Shown here in pieces: positions 4,005-10,204 of a stretch of 64,000 nt of DNA. Each line of letters opens with the position of its first letter. Position 1 is the stretch's first letter. This DNA is from a virus. Location of the stretch: IMG/VR virus record IMGVR_UViG_2915168811_000001; one strand, 5' to 3'. The notes below the pieces were generated by a model. It ran no database searches. It was not told the DNA's origin and was given only the letters and a program-made list of their open reading frames with translations. Position numbers and translations under genes: made by a program.

Positions 4005-4100
4005 ATGAATAAGCCCGCCGCGCGCCCGACGTATCAACCGTCGACGCTGTCGCAGCCGCGCTCATGGCGTTCGAATGCGGGCACTCAGAAGCCCTGGTAG
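4005..4100 (+). CDS. Small ORF, 31 aa (MNKPAARPTYQPSTLSQPRSWRSNAGTQKPW)
   Basis: AAGGAG RBS 6 nt before ATG; followed by a terminator. Confidence 0.4.
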   Translation: MNKPAARPTYQPSTLSQPRSWRSNAGTQKPW

Positions 4101-4123
4101 CACTCCTCCAGGATCACTCTGAA

Positions 4124-4160
4124 CCCGCTCCGCCGACATTCGGCTTGGGCGGGTTTTTCA
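4124..4160 (+). terminator. Intrinsic terminator
   Basis: GC hairpin cccgctccgccga/tcggcttgggcggg followed by ttttt. Confidence 0.7.
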
Positions 4161-4174
4161 TTTCTCGGCATCCA

Positions 4175-4186
4175 CCGCGCATCACT
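4175..4186 (+). promoter_or_regulatory. Class A motif CCGCGCATCACT ahead of tRNA array
   Basis: Ends 18 nt before tRNA-Trp, immediately after a terminator. Confidence 0.8.
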
Positions 4187-4204
4187 GTAAGCGAAGCACC
4201 AAAT

Positions 4205-4280
4205 GGGGATGTAGCTCAGCTGGAAGAGCAGCGGTCTCCAAAACCGCAGGCCGCAGGTTCGAACCCTGTCAGCCCCGCCA
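4205..4280 (+). tRNA. trnW: tRNA-Trp(CCA)
   Basis: Cloverleaf, anticodon loop CTCCAAA, TTCGA loop, encoded CCA; one acceptor-stem mismatch. Confidence 0.93.
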
Positions 4281-4282
4281 CA

Positions 4283-4301
4283 CTTTGATAACTCAACAGC
4301 G
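4283..4301 (+). promoter_or_regulatory. rrn-leader/boxA-like element CTTTGATAACTCAACAGCG
   Basis: Close match to the TTGAGAACTCAACAG segment I recall from actinobacterial rRNA operon leaders. Confidence 0.5.
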
Positions 4302-4314
4302 CACCACAACACAC

Positions 4315-4397
4315 GGGCCGGTATCCAAACTGGCGAAGGAAGCTGACTGTAAATCAGCCACGAAGACACGCTGCGGGTTCGACTCCCGCCTGGCCCA
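4315..4397 (+). tRNA. trnY: tRNA-Tyr(GTA)
   Basis: GCTGA-CTGTAAA-TCAGC arm, long variable region, GGTTCGACTCC; no encoded CCA. Confidence 0.92.
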
Positions 4398-4399
4398 CA

Positions 4400-4479
4400 G
4401 GAGATTGCGCGGATTGAACTTCCGCATTTGCTGTCGCACGTTCTAGGCGTGCGGCTCCGCCACTGCGGGTATCTCCCCT
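4400..4479 (+). ncRNA. tRNA-like three-hairpin structure with CTA in the central 7-nt loop
   Basis: GGAGAT/ATCTCC closing stem; hairpins GCGGA/TCCGC, CGCACG-TTCTAGG-CGTGCG and CCGC/GCGG; no canonical T loop. Confidence 0.35.
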
Positions 4480-4480
4480 C

Positions 4481-4555
4481 CCGGATGTAGCTCAGCTTGG
4501 CTAGAGCACCCGCTTTGGGAGCGGGAAGTCGCAGGTTCGAATCCTGTCATCCGGA
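4481..4555 (+). tRNA. trnP: tRNA-Pro(TGG)
   Basis: CCCGC-TTTGGGA-GCGGG arm, CCGGATG/CATCCGG acceptor. Confidence 0.93.
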
Positions 4556-4822
4556 CCGCGGACGTGCCATGTGTACGAACCGTATCCGTCCCCGTCGAAT
4601 CGGCGAGGACAGCGCTCGAGACGGAAGTACTGCCGATCGAGAGCCTGCGGAGACTAGCTAAGTAGCGACTCTCGCGGTAGGCACCCAATACTTCCTGACG
4701 CGCACCGACCTGGTGGCGCCGCATGTTTTAGCTCAAGCGGGCATGCACTTAGACAGTCGGGAGACCGCAGAATCGTCGCACCGCGGAAAGGCGGCGGGAA
4801 CAGCGGCGAAACTCCAGGCCAT
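4556..4822 (+). ncRNA. Unidentified structured RNA (about 265 nt)
   Basis: Nested stems GGAAGTA/TACTTCC, TGCC/GGCA, GAGAG/CTCTC, GTCC-CCG/CGG-GGAC, GCATG/CATGC; no convincing ORF. Confidence 0.5.
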
Positions 4823-4895
4823 GCACCTCTAGCTCAGTTGGTAGAGCATCCGGCTTTTAACCGGCGGGTCCTGGGTTCGAGCCCCAGGGGGTGCA
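4823..4895 (+). tRNA. trnK: tRNA-Lys(TTT)
   Basis: Loop CTTTTAA, GCACCTC/GGGGTGC acceptor. Confidence 0.92.
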
Positions 4896-4955
4896 CGAAA
4901 ACGAAAGGTGCTATCGAGGCACGGCTGAGCCAGCGTATGCGAATCAGCCGAATAT

Positions 4956-5028
4956 TCCGACGTAGCTCAGCTGGCAGAGCGCCGCACTGTTAATGCGGAT
5001 GCCGCAGGTTCGAACCCTGCCGTCGGAG
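4956..5028 (+). tRNA. trnN: tRNA-Asn(GTT)
   Basis: CCGCA-CTGTTAA-TGCGG arm, TCCGACG/CGTCGGA acceptor. Confidence 0.93.
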
Positions 5029-5071
5029 CGGCCTGGTCAGAGTACGGCGTGCACGCCGCTGACCTGGCTTT

Positions 5072-5156
5072 GGATGGTTGGCAGAGCGGCCGAATGCACA
5101 GGTCTTGAAAACCTGAGCCCTTCACGGGGCCCCGAGTTCGAATCTCGGACCATCCG
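5072..5156 (+). tRNA. trnS: tRNA-Ser(TGA)
   Basis: CAGGT-CTTGAAA-ACCTG arm, long variable arm GCCC-TTCAC-GGGGC. Confidence 0.93.
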
Positions 5157-5311
5157 CTGGGGCGAGCGAGCCCTTCTGTGAGGTTTGCCACGGCAGGTCG
5201 ACAAACCAGAAGGGCGCGGTACGTGCGCGGCGCGGGTTGCCATCCGTGTCCAGAAATCCGGGGCTTCGGCTGCCGGTACCTGGGGGTCGATTTCCCGGGC
5301 GTTCCACAAAT

Positions 5312-5370
5312 GGCTCTGTACATCTCAACTGGTAGAGGTACGCGCGTCGGTTCGAGTCCGACCAGGGTTC
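5312..5370 (+). ncRNA. tRNA-like RNA lacking the anticodon arm
   Basis: Acceptor GGCTCTG/CAGGGTT, D arm CTC-AACTGGTA-GAG, perfect T arm GTCGG-TTCGAGT-CCGAC; only 8 nt between D and T arms. Confidence 0.55.
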
Positions 5371-5441
5371 GCCCTGTAGCTCAGACGGTAGAGCGAGAGG
5401 CCTGCGGGCCTCGGGTGCGGGTTCGAATCCCGCCGGAGCCG
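5370..5441 (+). pseudogene. Degenerate tRNA (6-nt anticodon loop CTGCGG; Arg(GCG)-like or undetermined)
   Basis: Normal D and T arms, mismatched acceptor, non-canonical anticodon loop. Confidence 0.55.
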
Positions 5442-5469
5442 CTGCAACCCAGAAACTGGGTTGCGATAT

Positions 5470-5545
5470 TCCCGGATGGTCTGTTGGCAGGCCGCCTCGG
5501 TTCTGGGCCGAGATGTATCCGCTGGTTCGATTCCAGATTCGGGAG
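5470..5545 (+). tRNA. trnQ: tRNA-Gln(CTG)
   Basis: CTCGG-TTCTGGG-CCGAG arm, TCCCGGA/TTCGGGA acceptor; slightly atypical variable/T region. Confidence 0.8.
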
Positions 5546-5549
5546 CTAT

Positions 5550-5623
5550 TCCCCCGTGGTGTAGCGGCAGCACACCTGACTTTGGATCAGGAAGCCTTGG
5601 TTCGAACCCAAGCGGAGGAGCCA
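5550..5623 (+). tRNA. trnQ: tRNA-Gln(TTG)
   Basis: CCTGA-CTTTGGA-TCAGG arm, encoded CCA. Confidence 0.93.
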
Positions 5624-5754
5624 ACGTGGTGCGCTGTTCCCGAACAGCCCGGCCTATGCCTGGTCGCACGAGTTCGGGATGCTGCTTGCGCGCAAAAGCG
5701 AGCCGCACGACGGCGCCGGCGTGCGCAGGATTAACGGGAGCGTCAGCGGAGAAG

Positions 5755-6126
5755 TCATTTCGTACGGTCATGGTTTCCCTCGTCGTGGTCGGTAGGAGTT
5801 CGTTTTGAGGTGCCGCGTCGAAGGCCGCGCTCGAGGCGCTTCAGGGTTGCTGATTCTGCACGGTCATCTGCTTCGTTTTCGACGATGACGTACCGGCGAG
5901 GTATGAGCACGATCATTTTCGGGAAGTGATTTAACCACACCTTCTTGCAGCCTTTGGTCCATTCGTCAGCCAGCCGCTGCGCGACTTGAATCGAAGTTCT
6001 CGGGTCCTGGAGTCCATTCAGGACACGCTCGTACCCCTCTAACTGAAGCCCTTCGCGCTCCACATACCCGACCCGGAGTTCAATCTGCCGGACGAGATTC
6101 AGTGCAGTGATCTGCTTCGGCTTCAC
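5755..6126 (-). CDS. Hypothetical protein
   Basis: Last gene of a stop/start-overlapping minus-strand operon. Confidence 0.6.
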   Translation of the reverse strand: MKPKQITALNLVRQIELRVGYVEREGLQLEGYERVLNGLQDPRTSIQVAQRLADEWTKGCKKVWLNHFPKMIVLIPRRYVIVENEADDRAESATLKRLERGLRRGTSKRTPTDHDEGNHDRTK

Positions 6127-7107: not shown

Positions 7108-7784
7108 TGCTGAAATCCCATGCGATCCAGGATCAGGGAGTTTGTGGTCTGGTCGTCTGTCACATCCCGGGTGACTCTGCGGAAGAGCTTCCGTCGACGG
7201 ACCGGGGTTCTATCCGGCATCGCGCCGATGAGGTCGAACTGCTTGAACTCCTCAAGCTGACCGATCCGTGCGACTTCTTCTAATAGCCAGGTGACCCCGC
7301 GACCACCCAGTACGGCCAATTGACGATCGGCGTCTGGGACGAGACTGAAGGGGGCTGCACTGAGGTCCTTGAACCATTCCGAACCGCTGTTGAACAGGTC
7401 AATGTAATCGATGATTTGCACACCCCACGCCCCGGCCTCGGACAGGTCTGCATACACGCGCCGAAGATCAGACTGGACGTTACGTTCCATGGTCGCCGTA
7501 TCGACGATCACCAGATCCGCGGTGCTGAGAACAACGCTTTCGATAAAAGCTGTCACATCCTCTTCCGGTACAGGCGGGTACCGCCCCTGGAAAGAGAGAT
7601 CAGCAACATCGACGAGCATCCCTCTACTTCGCGCCAGCGACGCCACCTCCGCGGCAAGAGTTGACTTCCCGCTCCCGCCTCTTCCTGACCAGACAATGAG
7701 GATTTCAGGAGCCTTCTTCTGCTGTTCGATAGTGGCGCTCGGTGCGAGTGCCGTGTCGCTGGTCGTGTCGTAGTGCTCGCTCAT
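7098..7784 (-). CDS. P-loop NTPase (ParA/MinD-like)
   Basis: GRGGSGKST Walker A, VADL, DLVIVDT. Confidence 0.7.
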   Translation of the reverse strand: MSEHYDTTSDTALAPSATIEQQKKAPEILIVWSGRGGSGKSTLAAEVASLARSRGMLVDVADLSFQGRYPPVPEEDVTAFIESVVLSTADLVIVDTATMERNVQSDLRRVYADLSEAGAWGVQIIDYIDLFNSGSEWFKDLSAAPFSLVPDADRQLAVLGGRGVTWLLEEVARIGQLEEFKQFDLIGAMPDRTPVRRRKLFRRVTRDVTDDQTTNSLILDRMGFQHRA

Positions 7785-10204
7785 CGCCCCAGCTCCTCGA
7801 ACTCGGCTGCGGCCATGACCTCGATGCCGAGCGCTTCGGCTTTGGCGAGCTTCGATCCCGCTTTGTCGCCGGCAATGAGCAGGTCGAGGTTCTTCGATAC
7901 GGAGGACGCGACGGTGCCGCCGTGCTCCTCGATACGCTCCTCCGCCTGCTTGCGGGACAGGGTCGGGAATGTGCCGGTGACGAGAACACGCTTGCCGGTG
8001 AGGGGCTGCACGGGGTGTGCTGATTGGCCAGCGTTTCGAGTGCTGGCCAACTTCGCGCGAATCTCGTCAGGGAGAAAGTCGCTCTTGGGAGCAGCCAGGT
8101 CGGATGTGCTGTTCGCTTCAGGTAGGTATTTCGACCAGTCCCAAGTCATCATCATCCGGGCGCTGCCGACCCACTTCCAGAGCCGCTCCATCACCTCGGG
8201 TTCGCGGAGTTGAGCCAAGGTACCTTCCCCGAACCCAGGGATGGACAGGATCTCCTCGTTCGTCATGTCATGCAGGTACAGGAACGGCCCCGTGCTCGTG
8301 TCCAGATATGCGGTGCCTCCGCGCGCATCAGCAATCGCTTGAGCGATCTTCTTCCCTGCTCGCACCCCAATACCTGTGGCGCCGACGGCGGCGATCCATT
8401 TGGCTGGATCCTGGGGTTCGCTTAGCTTGAGATCGATTTCCTCTGCAAGCTTGTCCACCAGCTTCTGAGTACCGCGCTCGAATGGAAGCACCTTTCGGAA
8501 CCTGAACGATTCAGCCAGCTCAGGGAAGTCAGTGATCTCCGGATTCGATGCCAGCAGGCGACTGACAACGTCTTCGCCGAGGCCGAGGATGTCGAGTTTC
8601 GACGCAGCGAAGCTGATCGCCTTCACCGGATCGGTGCCGTTGTCGTGCACGAAATCACGGCCCTCGCGGCGGTAGGGAGTAGTAATTTTCCAGGCGATGA
8701 GGCAGCCTTCGAGCCAGCGTTGCACGGCGAAAACCATTTCATCCTGATCAAACGCTGCAGCGAGGCTGCGCTCGATGTCGTCCCCAAACTCAGGGGGTGC
8801 AAAAAACGCCGAGTGGTCGAAATACTCGCGGTCTTCAAGATCAGCCTGGCGCTCCCGGTTCCCGTCAAAATCAGTAACGAGCTTGATGTCGTCCCCTCGA
8901 CCGGGTTGGAAATTGATGACTGTAATGAGGCGGTTGTCCCTGCTTCGCCCGAACTCCTGCCAGCACAGCACTCCGGCTCCGATCGGCCATCCGTCAGGCC
9001 CGGGGATCGGCGTCGCGCCCGCGGCGTGCTCACCGATGCGGCGCACGACGTTCGGGATGACTTCGTTCGCTCGGGTGACTTCGATGGTGTCGCCGATCCA
9101 CACGTCGAGCTCTTCGAGGAAGGCGACGTTGTTCAGGGTGGCGCGCGACACCATCGCACCGGACAGCTCGACGGTGTCGAACACCGCGGTGGGTACAACG
9201 CGGCCGGTGCGGGTTTCTGACCACTCCACGGCGCGCAGTACGGTCTGCTTGGGGCGATTCGGGAACTTGTAGGCGAGCGCCCAGCGCGGGGCAGTCGACG
9301 ACTCGCCCAGCTCGGCGCGGAGCGAGGGGTCGGTGAGCTTCACGACGACGCCGTCGGTTTCGACGTCGAGGAGTTCCGCTTTGGCGTCGAGCCAAGCGAC
9401 AGCGGCGGCGACCGGCGTGCGGTGGTCCGCGAAAGGCGACTGCGGCAGCAGGTGCCGGGCGAAGTGCGAGGTCAAGCCTGACGGCTTCGCGCTCAGATCG
9501 GTGGCTTCCGTGGATCGGTCTGCGAGGGAGACTGCGCCGTCGGCGTCGTACGCCAGGAAGGTGAGGAGTCGCCCCGCTTCTGCGGCTGCAATTGCAAGGG
9601 CATCCCGCTTCGCGGGCTTGCCGATGTTCCGTGCGATTTTGGCGATAAGGCCAGCGGCAGCGTTGCGCGGATTCGAGAGCAGTTCCTCGTTGACGGACGC
9701 CAGCACTTCGTTGTTGTGATTGAACTTGGAGCGTGTCATGACGATCTCGCCCCGCACTTCGCCGGCGCCATCCAGCTTGAGGGGGAAACCCTGCCGGGCG
9801 AAAATCTCCCGGATCGCAGGCGTGATGTCCTCGCCGCGCTCCCCGTCGCCCCGGGTGAGGGCCCGCTCGAGATGCCCGTCGGCGCCGTAGCGGACGGACG
9901 CGGCCAGCCCGTCCCACTTCGGCTCGATCGCGTACGCGGCGTCAGGGTGTGAGGCCAGCAGGGCTTCGAGGTCGGCGACGTCGTGCACCTTTTTCAGGCT
10001 GAGCATGCGTCGCCCGTGCGCGATCTTGCCGCCTGTGGCGCCGTGCCCAACCTGCTCGGCTACACCGCGGGACGCCAGTTCGGCGGTGAGGCTGTCGAAG
10101 GCATCATCGGTCAACGGTGATCCGTCGCCGCCGTAGTAGGCGTCGGCGGCGCGGTCACGCTCCGCAATCAGGTCGTCGGTCGCGCGGGTGCTGAGGTCGG
10201 ACAT
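7781..10204 (-). CDS. ligA: NAD+-dependent DNA ligase with atypical central insert
   Basis: EPKWDG adenylation motif, EVRGE, TDGVVVK, PRWALAYKF, OB fold, HhH, C-terminal BRCT (VLVTG...VSKNLDLLIAGDKAGSKLAKA). Confidence 0.95.
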   Translation of the reverse strand: MSDLSTRATDDLIAERDRAADAYYGGDGSPLTDDAFDSLTAELASRGVAEQVGHGATGGKIAHGRRMLSLKKVHDVADLEALLASHPDAAYAIEPKWDGLAASVRYGADGHLERALTRGDGERGEDITPAIREIFARQGFPLKLDGAGEVRGEIVMTRSKFNHNNEVLASVNEELLSNPRNAAAGLIAKIARNIGKPAKRDALAIAAAEAGRLLTFLAYDADGAVSLADRSTEATDLSAKPSGLTSHFARHLLPQSPFADHRTPVAAAVAWLDAKAELLDVETDGVVVKLTDPSLRAELGESSTAPRWALAYKFPNRPKQTVLRAVEWSETRTGRVVPTAVFDTVELSGAMVSRATLNNVAFLEELDVWIGDTIEVTRANEVIPNVVRRIGEHAAGATPIPGPDGWPIGAGVLCWQEFGRSRDNRLITVINFQPGRGDDIKLVTDFDGNRERQADLEDREYFDHSAFFAPPEFGDDIERSLAAAFDQDEMVFAVQRWLEGCLIAWKITTPYRREGRDFVHDNGTDPVKAISFAASKLDILGLGEDVVSRLLASNPEITDFPELAESFRFRKVLPFERGTQKLVDKLAEEIDLKLSEPQDPAKWIAAVGATGIGVRAGKKIAQAIADARGGTAYLDTSTGPFLYLHDMTNEEILSIPGFGEGTLAQLREPEVMERLWKWVGSARMMMTWDWSKYLPEANSTSDLAAPKSDFLPDEIRAKLASTRNAGQSAHPVQPLTGKRVLVTGTFPTLSRKQAEERIEEHGGTVASSVSKNLDLLIAGDKAGSKLAKAEALGIEVMAAAEFEELGR

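What the first reader, a model, noticed from the sequence alone, without database searches (positions are those of the whole stretch)
4556..4822. Unidentified structured ncRNA of about 265 nt inside the tRNA array
Seen: an ORF-poor spacer far longer than needed, with nested long-range stems (GGAAGTA/TACTTCC enclosing TGCC/GGCA and GAGAG/CTCTC) and further hairpins. The 3' part contains CTTAGA...AGTC and GCGAAACTCCAG, which from memory recall conserved segments of the raiA-motif RNA. Large ornate RNAs such as GOLLD and ROOL are known to sit among tRNAs on mobile elements. It does not look like tmRNA, RNase P or SRP RNA.
Basis: partly seen in the sequence, partly recalled or inferred. Interest (0 to 1): 0.65.

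Follow-up and report, generated by a model that had tools for sequence, protein, structure and literature searches.

The report
New folded RNA inside tRNA array
The long gap between two tRNA genes on this large actinobacterial mobile element encodes a folded RNA of about 210-265 bases that matches no catalogued RNA family; its shape is kept in one distantly related element, but its job is unknown.

Summary
The 265-nt gap between tRNA-Pro and tRNA-Lys is real and non-coding. It matches no Rfam family, even at E<=10 on the stretch alone. This sequence on its own folds no better than shuffled copies (z -0.6).

The evidence comes from one diverged relative, contig L014, whose ligase is 51% identical. 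L014 has the same tRNA order and a 231-nt gap at the same place. The last 208 nt of both gaps align and have the same length. They share 44 base pairs in six main helices. Fourteen pairs vary and all stay paired; nine changed on both sides. Three unpaired stretches and the base of one helix are nearly invariant. The shared fold is far more stable than column-shuffled alignments (z -4.5 to -6.1) and favours the tRNA strand. Neighbouring spacers cannot be aligned.

Most likely this is a new RNA gene, transcribed with the tRNAs and cut out by tRNA processing. Function and expression are untested.

Apart from L014, only short near-identical contigs in four metagenome runs were found. This scan has noted folded RNAs in tRNA-array gaps on other DNA, but no look-alike of this sequence.

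The parts
4175..4186 (+). Promoter-like box CCGCGCATCACT, 18 nt before tRNA-Trp. It is the probable start signal for the whole tRNA/RNA transcript.
   Evidence: Found by motif search. A similar box, CCGCGTATAGCT, sits before tRNA-Trp in L014. The promoter role is inferred; earlier notes of this scan reported the box across the element.
4205..5623 (+). Same-strand array of 9 tRNA genes: Trp, Tyr, Pro, Lys, Asn, Ser, one with an odd anticodon loop, and two Gln.
   Evidence: ARAGORN and Rfam tRNA matches. The same gene order occurs in L014.
4481..4555 (+). tRNA-Pro(UGG). Its 3' end defines the upstream border of the RNA.
   Evidence: 67.8 bits. It is 91% identical to the L014 tRNA-Pro.
4556..4614 (+). 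Variable 5' extension of the RNA: 59 nt here, about 23-26 nt in L014. It forms local hairpins that are not conserved.
   Evidence: Alignments A1 and A2. Identity is at the level of shuffled sequence.
4615..4641 (+). H1: hairpin of 5+3 bp with an 8-nt loop, AAGUACUG here and AAAGACAG in L014.
   Evidence: All 8 pairs are kept and 2 changed on both sides. Coordinates.
4643..4682 (+). H2: long hairpin. Its base, including an internal loop GGA/GCG, is almost invariant (21 of 22 columns); its tip is variable.
4692..4763 (+). Three-way junction. H3 (4692-4699 paired with 4756-4763) encloses H4 (4700-4719) and H5 (4721-4746), plus the conserved single strand 4747-4755, ACUUAGACA.
   Evidence: H3, H4 and H5 are fully paired in both sequences, with 1, 1 and 3 pairs changed on both sides. 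Coordinates.
4727..4740 (+). Loop of H5, UUUAGCUCAAGCGG, with 12 of 14 bases conserved. It reads like the 5' half of a tRNA D-arm (UAGCUCA..GG).
   Evidence: Conservation. The tRNA likeness is seen directly by comparison with the tRNA-Lys sequence at 4830-4842.
4773..4797 (+). H6: 7-bp hairpin with an 11-nt loop, ACCGCGGAAAG (4780-4790), with 10 of 11 bases conserved. The loop contains the self-complementary CCGCGG.
   Evidence: Two pairs changed on both sides and two on one side, all kept. A G>A variant at 4797 in a metagenome relative turns U.G into U-A.
4798..4822 (+). Poorly conserved 3' tail, which is also the 5' leader of tRNA-Lys. An RNase P cut at 4822/4823 would set the 3' end of the RNA.
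   Evidence: 9 of 26 columns identical. The processing step is inferred from the general mechanism of RNase P.
4823..4896 (+). tRNA-Lys(UUU), which directly abuts the RNA. Its positional counterpart in L014 is tRNA-Lys(CUU).
4399..4480 (+). Second conserved non-tRNA element, X1: an 82-nt four-way-junction fold just before tRNA-Pro.
   Evidence: 79% identical to L014 2961-3044. All 24 predicted pairs are kept. Model R2 finds it only in the window and L014.

Best explanation
The stretch 4556-4822 (+) is a gene for a structured non-coding RNA of a family not yet catalogued.

Shown here:
- A conserved 208-nt core (4615-4822) folds into six main helices, including a three-way junction.
- The helix stems co-vary.
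- Three unpaired stretches and one helix base are nearly invariant.

Inferred:
- The RNA is transcribed with the tRNAs from the element's own promoter-like box at 4175.
- It is freed by the enzymes that trim tRNAs. 3' processing of tRNA-Pro would set its 5' end near 4556-4559, and the RNase P cut before tRNA-Lys would set its 3' end at 4822.
- The released RNA then acts in trans through its invariant surfaces: the tRNA-D-arm-like loop 4727-4740, the strand 4747-4755, the CCGCGG loop 4780-4790 and the H2 internal loop.
- The most plausible targets are a protein or enzyme that handles tRNA, or another copy of the RNA itself, in support of the array's role in supplying or protecting tRNAs for the element.
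For: Homology and position:
- Contig L014 carries the same array order: Trp, Tyr, (Lys), X1, Pro, gap, Lys, Asn, Ser ... Gln. Its ligase is 51% identical to the window's.
- L014 has a 231-nt gap at the same place.
- The gaps align, and the core is 208 nt in both.

Structure:
- The two sequences share 44 pairs, and every one forms a standard pair in both.
- Nine pairs changed on both sides and five on one side; none is broken.
- None of 500 shuffles reached these values. When the pairing partners were slid by 1-3 columns, only 29-51% of cells paired, with 0-2 double changes.
- The consensus fold energy is -61 to -64 kcal/mol, against about -37 to -41 for column-shuffled alignments: z -4.5 to -6.1, with 0 of 300 shuffles as low.

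Strand:
- The + strand gives a structure conservation index (SCI) of 0.72 and z -5.1. The - strand gives 0.57 and z -1.8.
- Six G.U pairs in the window copy would be A.C mismatches on the other strand.

Selective conservation:
- H5 loop 12 of 14, H6 loop 10 of 11, H2 base 21 of 22, strand 4747-4755 7 of 9.
- The Trp-Tyr and Lys-Asn spacers are at the level of shuffled sequence.

Variants listed in near-identical metagenome contigs fall in loops or the tail, or keep pairing. G>A at 4797 makes U.G into U-A. Changes at 4636 and 4637 swap one pair for another.

Not coding: the alignment has frame-breaking indels.

No sigma-70-type promoter or convincing terminator lies inside the array. The only promoter-like box lies before tRNA-Trp.
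Against: - Only two diverged sequences exist, so covariation cannot be tested with proper statistics (for example R-scape). The structure was also derived from the same two sequences.
- The window sequence alone folds no better than shuffles.
- There is no evidence that an RNA accumulates, or of its ends.
- The family is very rare. Pattern scans and blastn found nothing in IMG/VR, JGI metagenome contigs, GTDB genomes, PLSDB plasmids or the phage collection.
- Related Leucobacter and Pseudoclavibacter elements lack it.
- The trans-acting role and any partner are pure inference. No conserved pseudoknot was found among the unpaired columns.
Confidence: 0.6

Rival explanations
1. It is a cis-acting structured spacer rather than a separate RNA. 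The fold would organise processing of the polycistronic precursor, for example by keeping neighbouring tRNAs from misfolding, by guiding RNase E or RNase P, or by setting how much of the downstream tRNAs is made. It would be degraded after cleavage.
For: It sits flush against both tRNAs, and its 3' tail is the tRNA-Lys leader. Other spacers of the array also form hairpins of unrelated sequence in the two elements, as seen directly. No separate promoter or terminator was found.
Against: Insulating hairpins need no invariant loop sequences. Here a 14-nt loop and an 11-nt loop, a 9-nt junction strand and an internal loop are almost unchanged while the stems drift. A 208-nt architecture of fixed length is far more than the other spacers need: they are 3-82 nt.
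Confidence: 0.17
2. It is a relic of decayed tRNA genes with no present function. The similarity between the two elements would reflect shared descent or recent transfer of the array.
For: The H5 loop reads like a tRNA D-arm, and 4748-4754 (CUUAGAC here, UUCAGAC in L014) reads like a leucine anticodon loop. Both arrays do hold tRNA remnants: T-arm-like pieces at about 5340-5360 here, and in the L014 Lys-Asn and Thr-Gln gaps.
Against: Unselected spacers in the same arrays have diverged beyond alignment, yet this one keeps its exact length and every pair, with compensating changes. The tRNA model and ARAGORN find nothing convincing in it, even at relaxed settings.
Confidence: 0.1
3. It is a much-reduced member of a known family that the Rfam models miss, such as RNase P RNA or raiA. 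From memory, short words in it recall RNase P RNA: GAGGAAAG in L014, GCGCACCGCGG and AAACUCCA.
For: Only word-level resemblances, recalled from memory.
Against: No Rfam match of any kind was found in the window stretch or the L014 copy at E<=10. GAGGAAAG lies inside a local hairpin (H1) here. I found no partner strand for a P4-like long-range helix by eye, and no terminal helix joins the two ends. The automated search for extra long-range helices among the unpaired columns of the core also found none.
Confidence: 0.04
4. It is a DNA-level site, such as an attachment site or a protein-binding region, rather than an RNA.
For: The conserved blocks could in principle be binding sites. tRNA regions are common integration targets; this is general knowledge and was not tested here.
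Against: Compensating changes in stems, strand asymmetry and G.U pairs point to a single-stranded RNA on the tRNA strand. No repeats or other copies occur in the window.
Confidence: 0.03

Closest known systems
Phage T4 RNAC and RNAD, the small RNAs of the T4 tRNA gene region
   Same: They are small non-tRNA RNAs transcribed from a mobile element's tRNA cluster, and their biological role is unknown (PMC3014915). This is the closest analogy for how the RNA here would be made.
   Different: No sequence or model relationship was tested or seen. The RNA here is longer (about 210-265 nt), has a three-way junction and no tRNA-like ends, and lies on a high-G+C actinobacterial element.
GOLLD and ROOL, large ornate RNAs
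   Same: [quoted passage not shown] The RNA here also sits in a tRNA array and has a conserved loop containing the 6-nt palindrome CCGCGG.
   Different: No Rfam match. It is much smaller than the 550-833-nt ROOL and GOLLD RNAs listed in that review. Self-association is only a possibility raised by the palindrome.
raiA-motif RNA
   Same: Similar size class and occurrence in Actinobacteria (from memory).
   Different: No match to any Rfam model at E<=10 on the 281-nt stretch, so membership is not supported.
tRNA-punctuated transcripts, such as the mitochondrial punctuation model and mascRNA-type release
   Same: The flanking tRNA structures would serve as the cutting signals that free the RNA between them.
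   Different: That model is established for other systems. Here, processing is inferred from gene layout only.

Membership tests
raiA-motif RNA (Rfam) | Match to the family covariance model (sequence plus structure) | tested here: not met
   cmscan of 4550-4830 against all 4227 Rfam families gave no match at E<=10. The same holds for 4100-5800 and for the L014 copy.
GOLLD / ROOL | Match to the family covariance model; length of several hundred nucleotides with many helices | tested here: not met
   No match. The gap is only 265 nt.
Group I intron | Match to the family model; insertion within a tRNA or other gene with a catalytic core (P3-P9) | tested here: not met
   No Rfam match. The flanking tRNAs are complete and separate genes.
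Bacterial RNase P RNA | Match to a family model; long-range P4 helix and a terminal P1 helix joining the two ends | tested here: not met
   No Rfam match at E<=10. The conserved fold has no helix that closes the ends. No additional long-range helix was found among the unpaired columns of the core.
tRNA / tmRNA | Cloverleaf with acceptor and T arms (tRNA); tRNA-like domain plus tag reading frame (tmRNA) | tested here: not met
   No RF00005 or RF00023 match inside the gap. ARAGORN at default settings finds nothing, and at relaxed settings gives only overlapping, inconsistent calls.
Structured RNA gene (general criteria) | Conserved secondary structure with compensating base changes, on one strand | tested here: met
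   All 44 pairs are kept and 9 changed on both sides. Consensus-fold z is -4.5 to -6.1. The + strand is favoured. Caveat: only two diverged sequences.
Structured RNA gene (general criteria) | A stable transcript with defined ends | not testable with these tools
   No RNA run holding the stretch was listed.

The most novel reading that the evidence does not exclude
This is the founding member of a new class of RNAs released by tRNA processing on giant actinobacterial mobile elements. Its invariant loops would make it either a mimic or decoy for a tRNA-binding factor, through the D-arm-like loop and the anticodon-loop-like strand, or a self-associating RNA, through the CCGCGG loop. Together with the neighbouring cloverleaf-like X1, it would show that such tRNA arrays also serve to deliver non-tRNA RNAs.
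Probability: 0.15. Interest if true: 0.75.

Novelty: new variant of a known kind. Interest (0 to 1): 0.5.

Why it matters
tRNA arrays on phages and plasmids are usually read simply as spare tRNAs. Here, two of the gaps in such an array are under selection for RNA shape, and the larger one matches no known family. That adds an actinobacterial, plasmid-like example to the short list of unexplained RNAs that travel inside tRNA clusters: T4 RNAC and RNAD, GOLLD and ROOL. It also gives a compact object of about 210 nt with clearly marked conserved surfaces, suitable for probing, partner pull-down and structure work. Its rarity limits how general any lesson will be.

Tried and rejected
No whole genome is held for the window, and the NCBI loci fetched could not be used as search centres.

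Searches for homologues that found nothing useful:
- blastn of the gap against plasmids and phages gave only chance-level or no hits.
- Exact or gapped patterns from the gap found nothing in IMG/VR. Two chance hits were rejected by model R1 and had no tRNAs.
- JGI metagenome contigs gave nothing, then one chance hit on eukaryote-like DNA, L016.
- GTDB genome contigs gave nothing.
- The ligase was not found in IMG/VR.
- Earlier notes of this scan hold no look-alike sequence.

Relatives found through flanking proteins:
- Pseudoclavibacter elements (48% identical neighbour protein) have no tRNAs there.
- Leucobacter elements have at most a lone tRNA-Lys, and its upstream DNA shows no similarity to the gap.
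- Contigs L013, L015 and L017-L019 have no array or are too short on the relevant side.
- The Curtobacterium plasmid NZ_CP126274.1 has a 34-tRNA array with a tmRNA but nothing like this RNA.

Sequencing runs: no RNA holder was listed. DNA contigs from four runs cover only parts of the gap.

Ideas tested and dropped:
- Small protein: flat codon-position G+C and frame-breaking indels.
- tRNA with an intron, or a tRNA frame carrying an insert: ARAGORN with introns allowed found none on the + strand.
- RNase P-like core: no Rfam match.
- Conserved pseudoknots: none of 4 bp or more among the unpaired columns.
- A kissing contact between the H5 loop and the H2 tip works in the window (UUAGCU with AGCUAA) but not in L014, seen directly.
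- Other L014 proteins near its array, including YqeY, have no counterpart in this window.

Full report
**What is there.** The window carries nine same-strand tRNA genes at 4205-5623 (Rfam tRNA matches). A promoter-like box, CCGCGCATCACT, lies at 4175, 18 nt before the first tRNA. Earlier notes of this scan report this box as element-wide. Most spacers are 3-82 nt. The gap between tRNA-Pro (which ends at 4555, followed by CC) and tRNA-Lys (which starts at 4823) is about 265 nt.

The ORFs that overlap the gap do not have the third-position G+C excess of the window's real genes. So the basic observation, a long non-coding spacer, is correct.

**Known families.** cmscan against all 4227 Rfam families gives only tRNAs at gathering score. 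It gives nothing in the gap at E<=10, whether 1.7 kb is searched or the 281-nt stretch alone. This covers raiA, GOLLD, ROOL, group I introns, RNase P, tmRNA and SRP RNA. ARAGORN finds no tRNA or tmRNA there at default settings, and only inconsistent overlapping calls at relaxed ones.

**The single sequence.** That fold (-101.6 kcal/mol) is no better than dinucleotide shuffles: z -0.59 on the + strand and +0.10 on the - strand. This sequence on its own gives no evidence of structure.

**Finding relatives.** No genome is held for the window. According to the protein index, the window lies on a 217,787-bp contig. Earlier notes call it a large actinobacterial plasmid-like element.

Direct DNA searches of phages, plasmids, IMG/VR, JGI metagenomes and GTDB genomes found nothing.

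Laying Logan contigs from four runs on the stretch (soil, two wastewater, one coded organism) showed short low-depth contigs, 87-100% identical, that span non-tRNA parts of the array. Two cover parts of the gap: 4520-4674 with 8 differences, and 4484-4683 with 11 differences and one gap. A third covers 4762-4992. Close relatives of the element therefore exist, but they are too similar to be informative.

The neighbouring NAD-dependent ligase (7781-10204, -) has a small clade of 49-62% identical relatives. One of them lies on ENA contig L014 (14,170 bp). This contig has a syntenic array: Trp, Tyr, Lys(UUU), Pro, a 231-nt gap, Lys(CUU), Asn, Ser, Arg, Thr, a gap, Gln. The ligase is the only protein near that array that also occurs in the window (51% identity).

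**Comparative evidence.** The two Pro-Lys gaps align. After a variable 5' part (59 nt here, about 23-26 nt in L014), the remaining 208 nt are the same length in both.

RNAalifold gives a common fold. After removing isolated pairs it has 44 pairs (coordinates):
- H1: 4615-4641.
- H2: 4643-4682.
- A three-way junction: H3 (4692-4699 with 4756-4763) enclosing H4 (4700-4719) and H5 (4721-4746).
- H6: 4773-4797.

On this structure every pair is a standard pair in both sequences. Nine pairs changed on both sides and five on one side. None of 500 shuffles reaches these values. Sliding the partners by 1-3 columns drops pairing to 29-51%, with 0-2 double changes. H5 is the clearest case: GCAUGU/GCAUGC here becomes GCCACC/GGUGGC in L014, around an almost unchanged 14-nt loop.

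The consensus energy (-61 to -64 kcal/mol) lies 4.5-6.1 standard deviations below column-shuffled alignments, and 0 of 300 shuffles are as low. The + strand is favoured (SCI 0.72, z -5.1) over the - strand (SCI 0.57, z -1.8). The window copy has six G.U pairs that would be mismatches on the other strand.

Conservation is patchy, in the way expected of a functional RNA:
- H5 loop: 12 of 14.
- H6 loop: 10 of 11.
- Base of H2 with its internal loop: 21 of 22.
- Junction strand 4747-4755: 7 of 9.
- H2 tip: 9 of 18.
- Tail: 9 of 26.

The Trp-Tyr and Lys-Asn spacers of the same arrays are no more alike than shuffled sequence. Recent transfer of the whole array therefore cannot explain the similarity.

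Variants listed for the near-identical metagenome contigs fit the fold:
- 4621 and 4636 lie in the H1 internal loop.
- 4636 and 4637 together exchange one pair for a neighbouring one.
- G>A at 4797 turns a U.G into U-A.
- 4799, 4803, 4821 and 4822 lie in the tail.

That list is incomplete, because the tool did not show 33 further differences.

The long-range stem GGAAGTA/TACTTCC is absent from L014. In the conserved fold, those bases belong to H1 and to the junction before H3. GCGAAACTCCAG lies in the poorly conserved tail.

**Caveats.**
- There are only two diverged sequences.
- The structure was derived from the same pair, so the counts lean towards it.
- The column shuffle does not keep dinucleotide content.
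- No RNA data exist for this element.
- Model R1, built from the pair, finds only the two founders among 245 kb of related loci, including the 34-tRNA array of Curtobacterium plasmid NZ_CP126274.1.
- Patterns made from the conserved blocks found no further copies in IMG/VR, JGI or GTDB.

The family is real on present evidence, but very rare.

**How it most likely works.** Shown: a conserved, strand-specific fold placed flush between two intact tRNAs, with no promoter box inside the array and no convincing terminator.

Inferred: one transcript starts at the 4175 box. RNase P cuts at 4822/4823. 3' trimming of tRNA-Pro frees the 5' end. The excised RNA of about 265 nt (about 230 nt in L014) then acts through its invariant surfaces.

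Two features seen directly in the sequence suggest what these surfaces might do:
- The H5 loop (UUAGCUCA.GCGG) repeats the 5' half of a tRNA D-arm. Next to it, the strand CUUAGAC (UUCAGAC in L014) resembles an anticodon loop.
- The H6 loop carries the palindrome CCGCGG flanked by purines, the kind of sequence that forms kissing-loop dimers.

I therefore favour a trans-acting RNA tied to tRNA handling or to self-assembly. This step is a guess.

The main rival is a purely cis-acting processing spacer. It is less likely because insulating hairpins do not need invariant loops. A neutral tRNA relic is unlikely given the compensating changes. A hidden member of a known family, or a DNA site, is unlikely given the Rfam results and the strand asymmetry.

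**Comparison with known systems.** The production route resembles the T4 tRNA region, which yields RNAC and RNAD of unknown role (PMC3014915). The location resembles that of GOLLD and ROOL, which are frequent in tRNA arrays and assemble through kissing loops (PMC12990946). Membership in any of these families was tested by covariance model and not met.

This scan has noted structured RNAs in tRNA-array gaps of other mobile elements. None shares sequence with this one.

**Verdict.** This is a real and probably functional RNA gene of a new, rare family, in a known kind of setting. Interest is moderate: the structure signal is clean, but breadth, expression and function are all still open.

Noticed in passing
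window 4399-4480 (+); L014 2961-3044 (-): The 82-nt spacer just before tRNA-Pro is 79% identical between the two elements. It folds into a four-way junction: a closing stem, an arm with a T-loop-like 7-nt loop UUGAACU, a 7-bp arm and a 4-bp arm. All 24 pairs are kept and one is compensated. It has no Rfam or ARAGORN match, and model R2 finds it only in these two elements. It may be a rearranged tRNA look-alike.
   Followed up: partly
window 5310-5369 (+): A tRNA-like piece with an acceptor-like stem, D-arm-like and T-arm-like parts but no anticodon arm lies directly before the next tRNA. It gives weak Rfam matches to mascRNA (23.8 bits) and to the tRNA-like part of YrlA (36.5 bits, E 7e-6, below threshold).
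   Followed up: no
window 5370-5442 (+): This tRNA scores 42.6 bits, but ARAGORN cannot name its anticodon. The anticodon stem GAGGC/GCCUC encloses only 6 bases (CUGCGG), so it may be non-decoding or unusual.
   Followed up: no
window 4006-4100 (+); L014 about 3584-3510 (-): A small ORF that starts MNKPAA...QPS (MRMNTKPAANQPS in L014), followed by a hairpin with a T-run, precedes the array's promoter-like box in both elements. It is probably the end of the upstream operon.
   Followed up: no
window 4175-4186 (+); L014 about 3434-3423 (-): The element's promoter-like box CCGCGCATCACT before tRNA-Trp has a counterpart, CCGCGTATAGCT, before tRNA-Trp in L014. The box type therefore seems to be shared by the two elements.
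   Followed up: partly
L008 (NZ_CP126274.1, 450500-469500): The 607-kb Curtobacterium plasmid, a distant relative through the sigma-like protein, has 34 tRNAs and a tmRNA. They are interleaved with small genes, an ATP-dependent RNA ligase and a HAD-domain protein. Several of its long gaps were not examined.
   Followed up: partly
L014 2447-2579 and 1805-2039 (-): The Lys-Asn and Thr-Gln gaps of L014 contain T-arm-like remnants (GGGGTTCGAATCCC and GCCAGGTTCAATCCCTGGC). This shows that tRNAs decay within these arrays.
   Followed up: no
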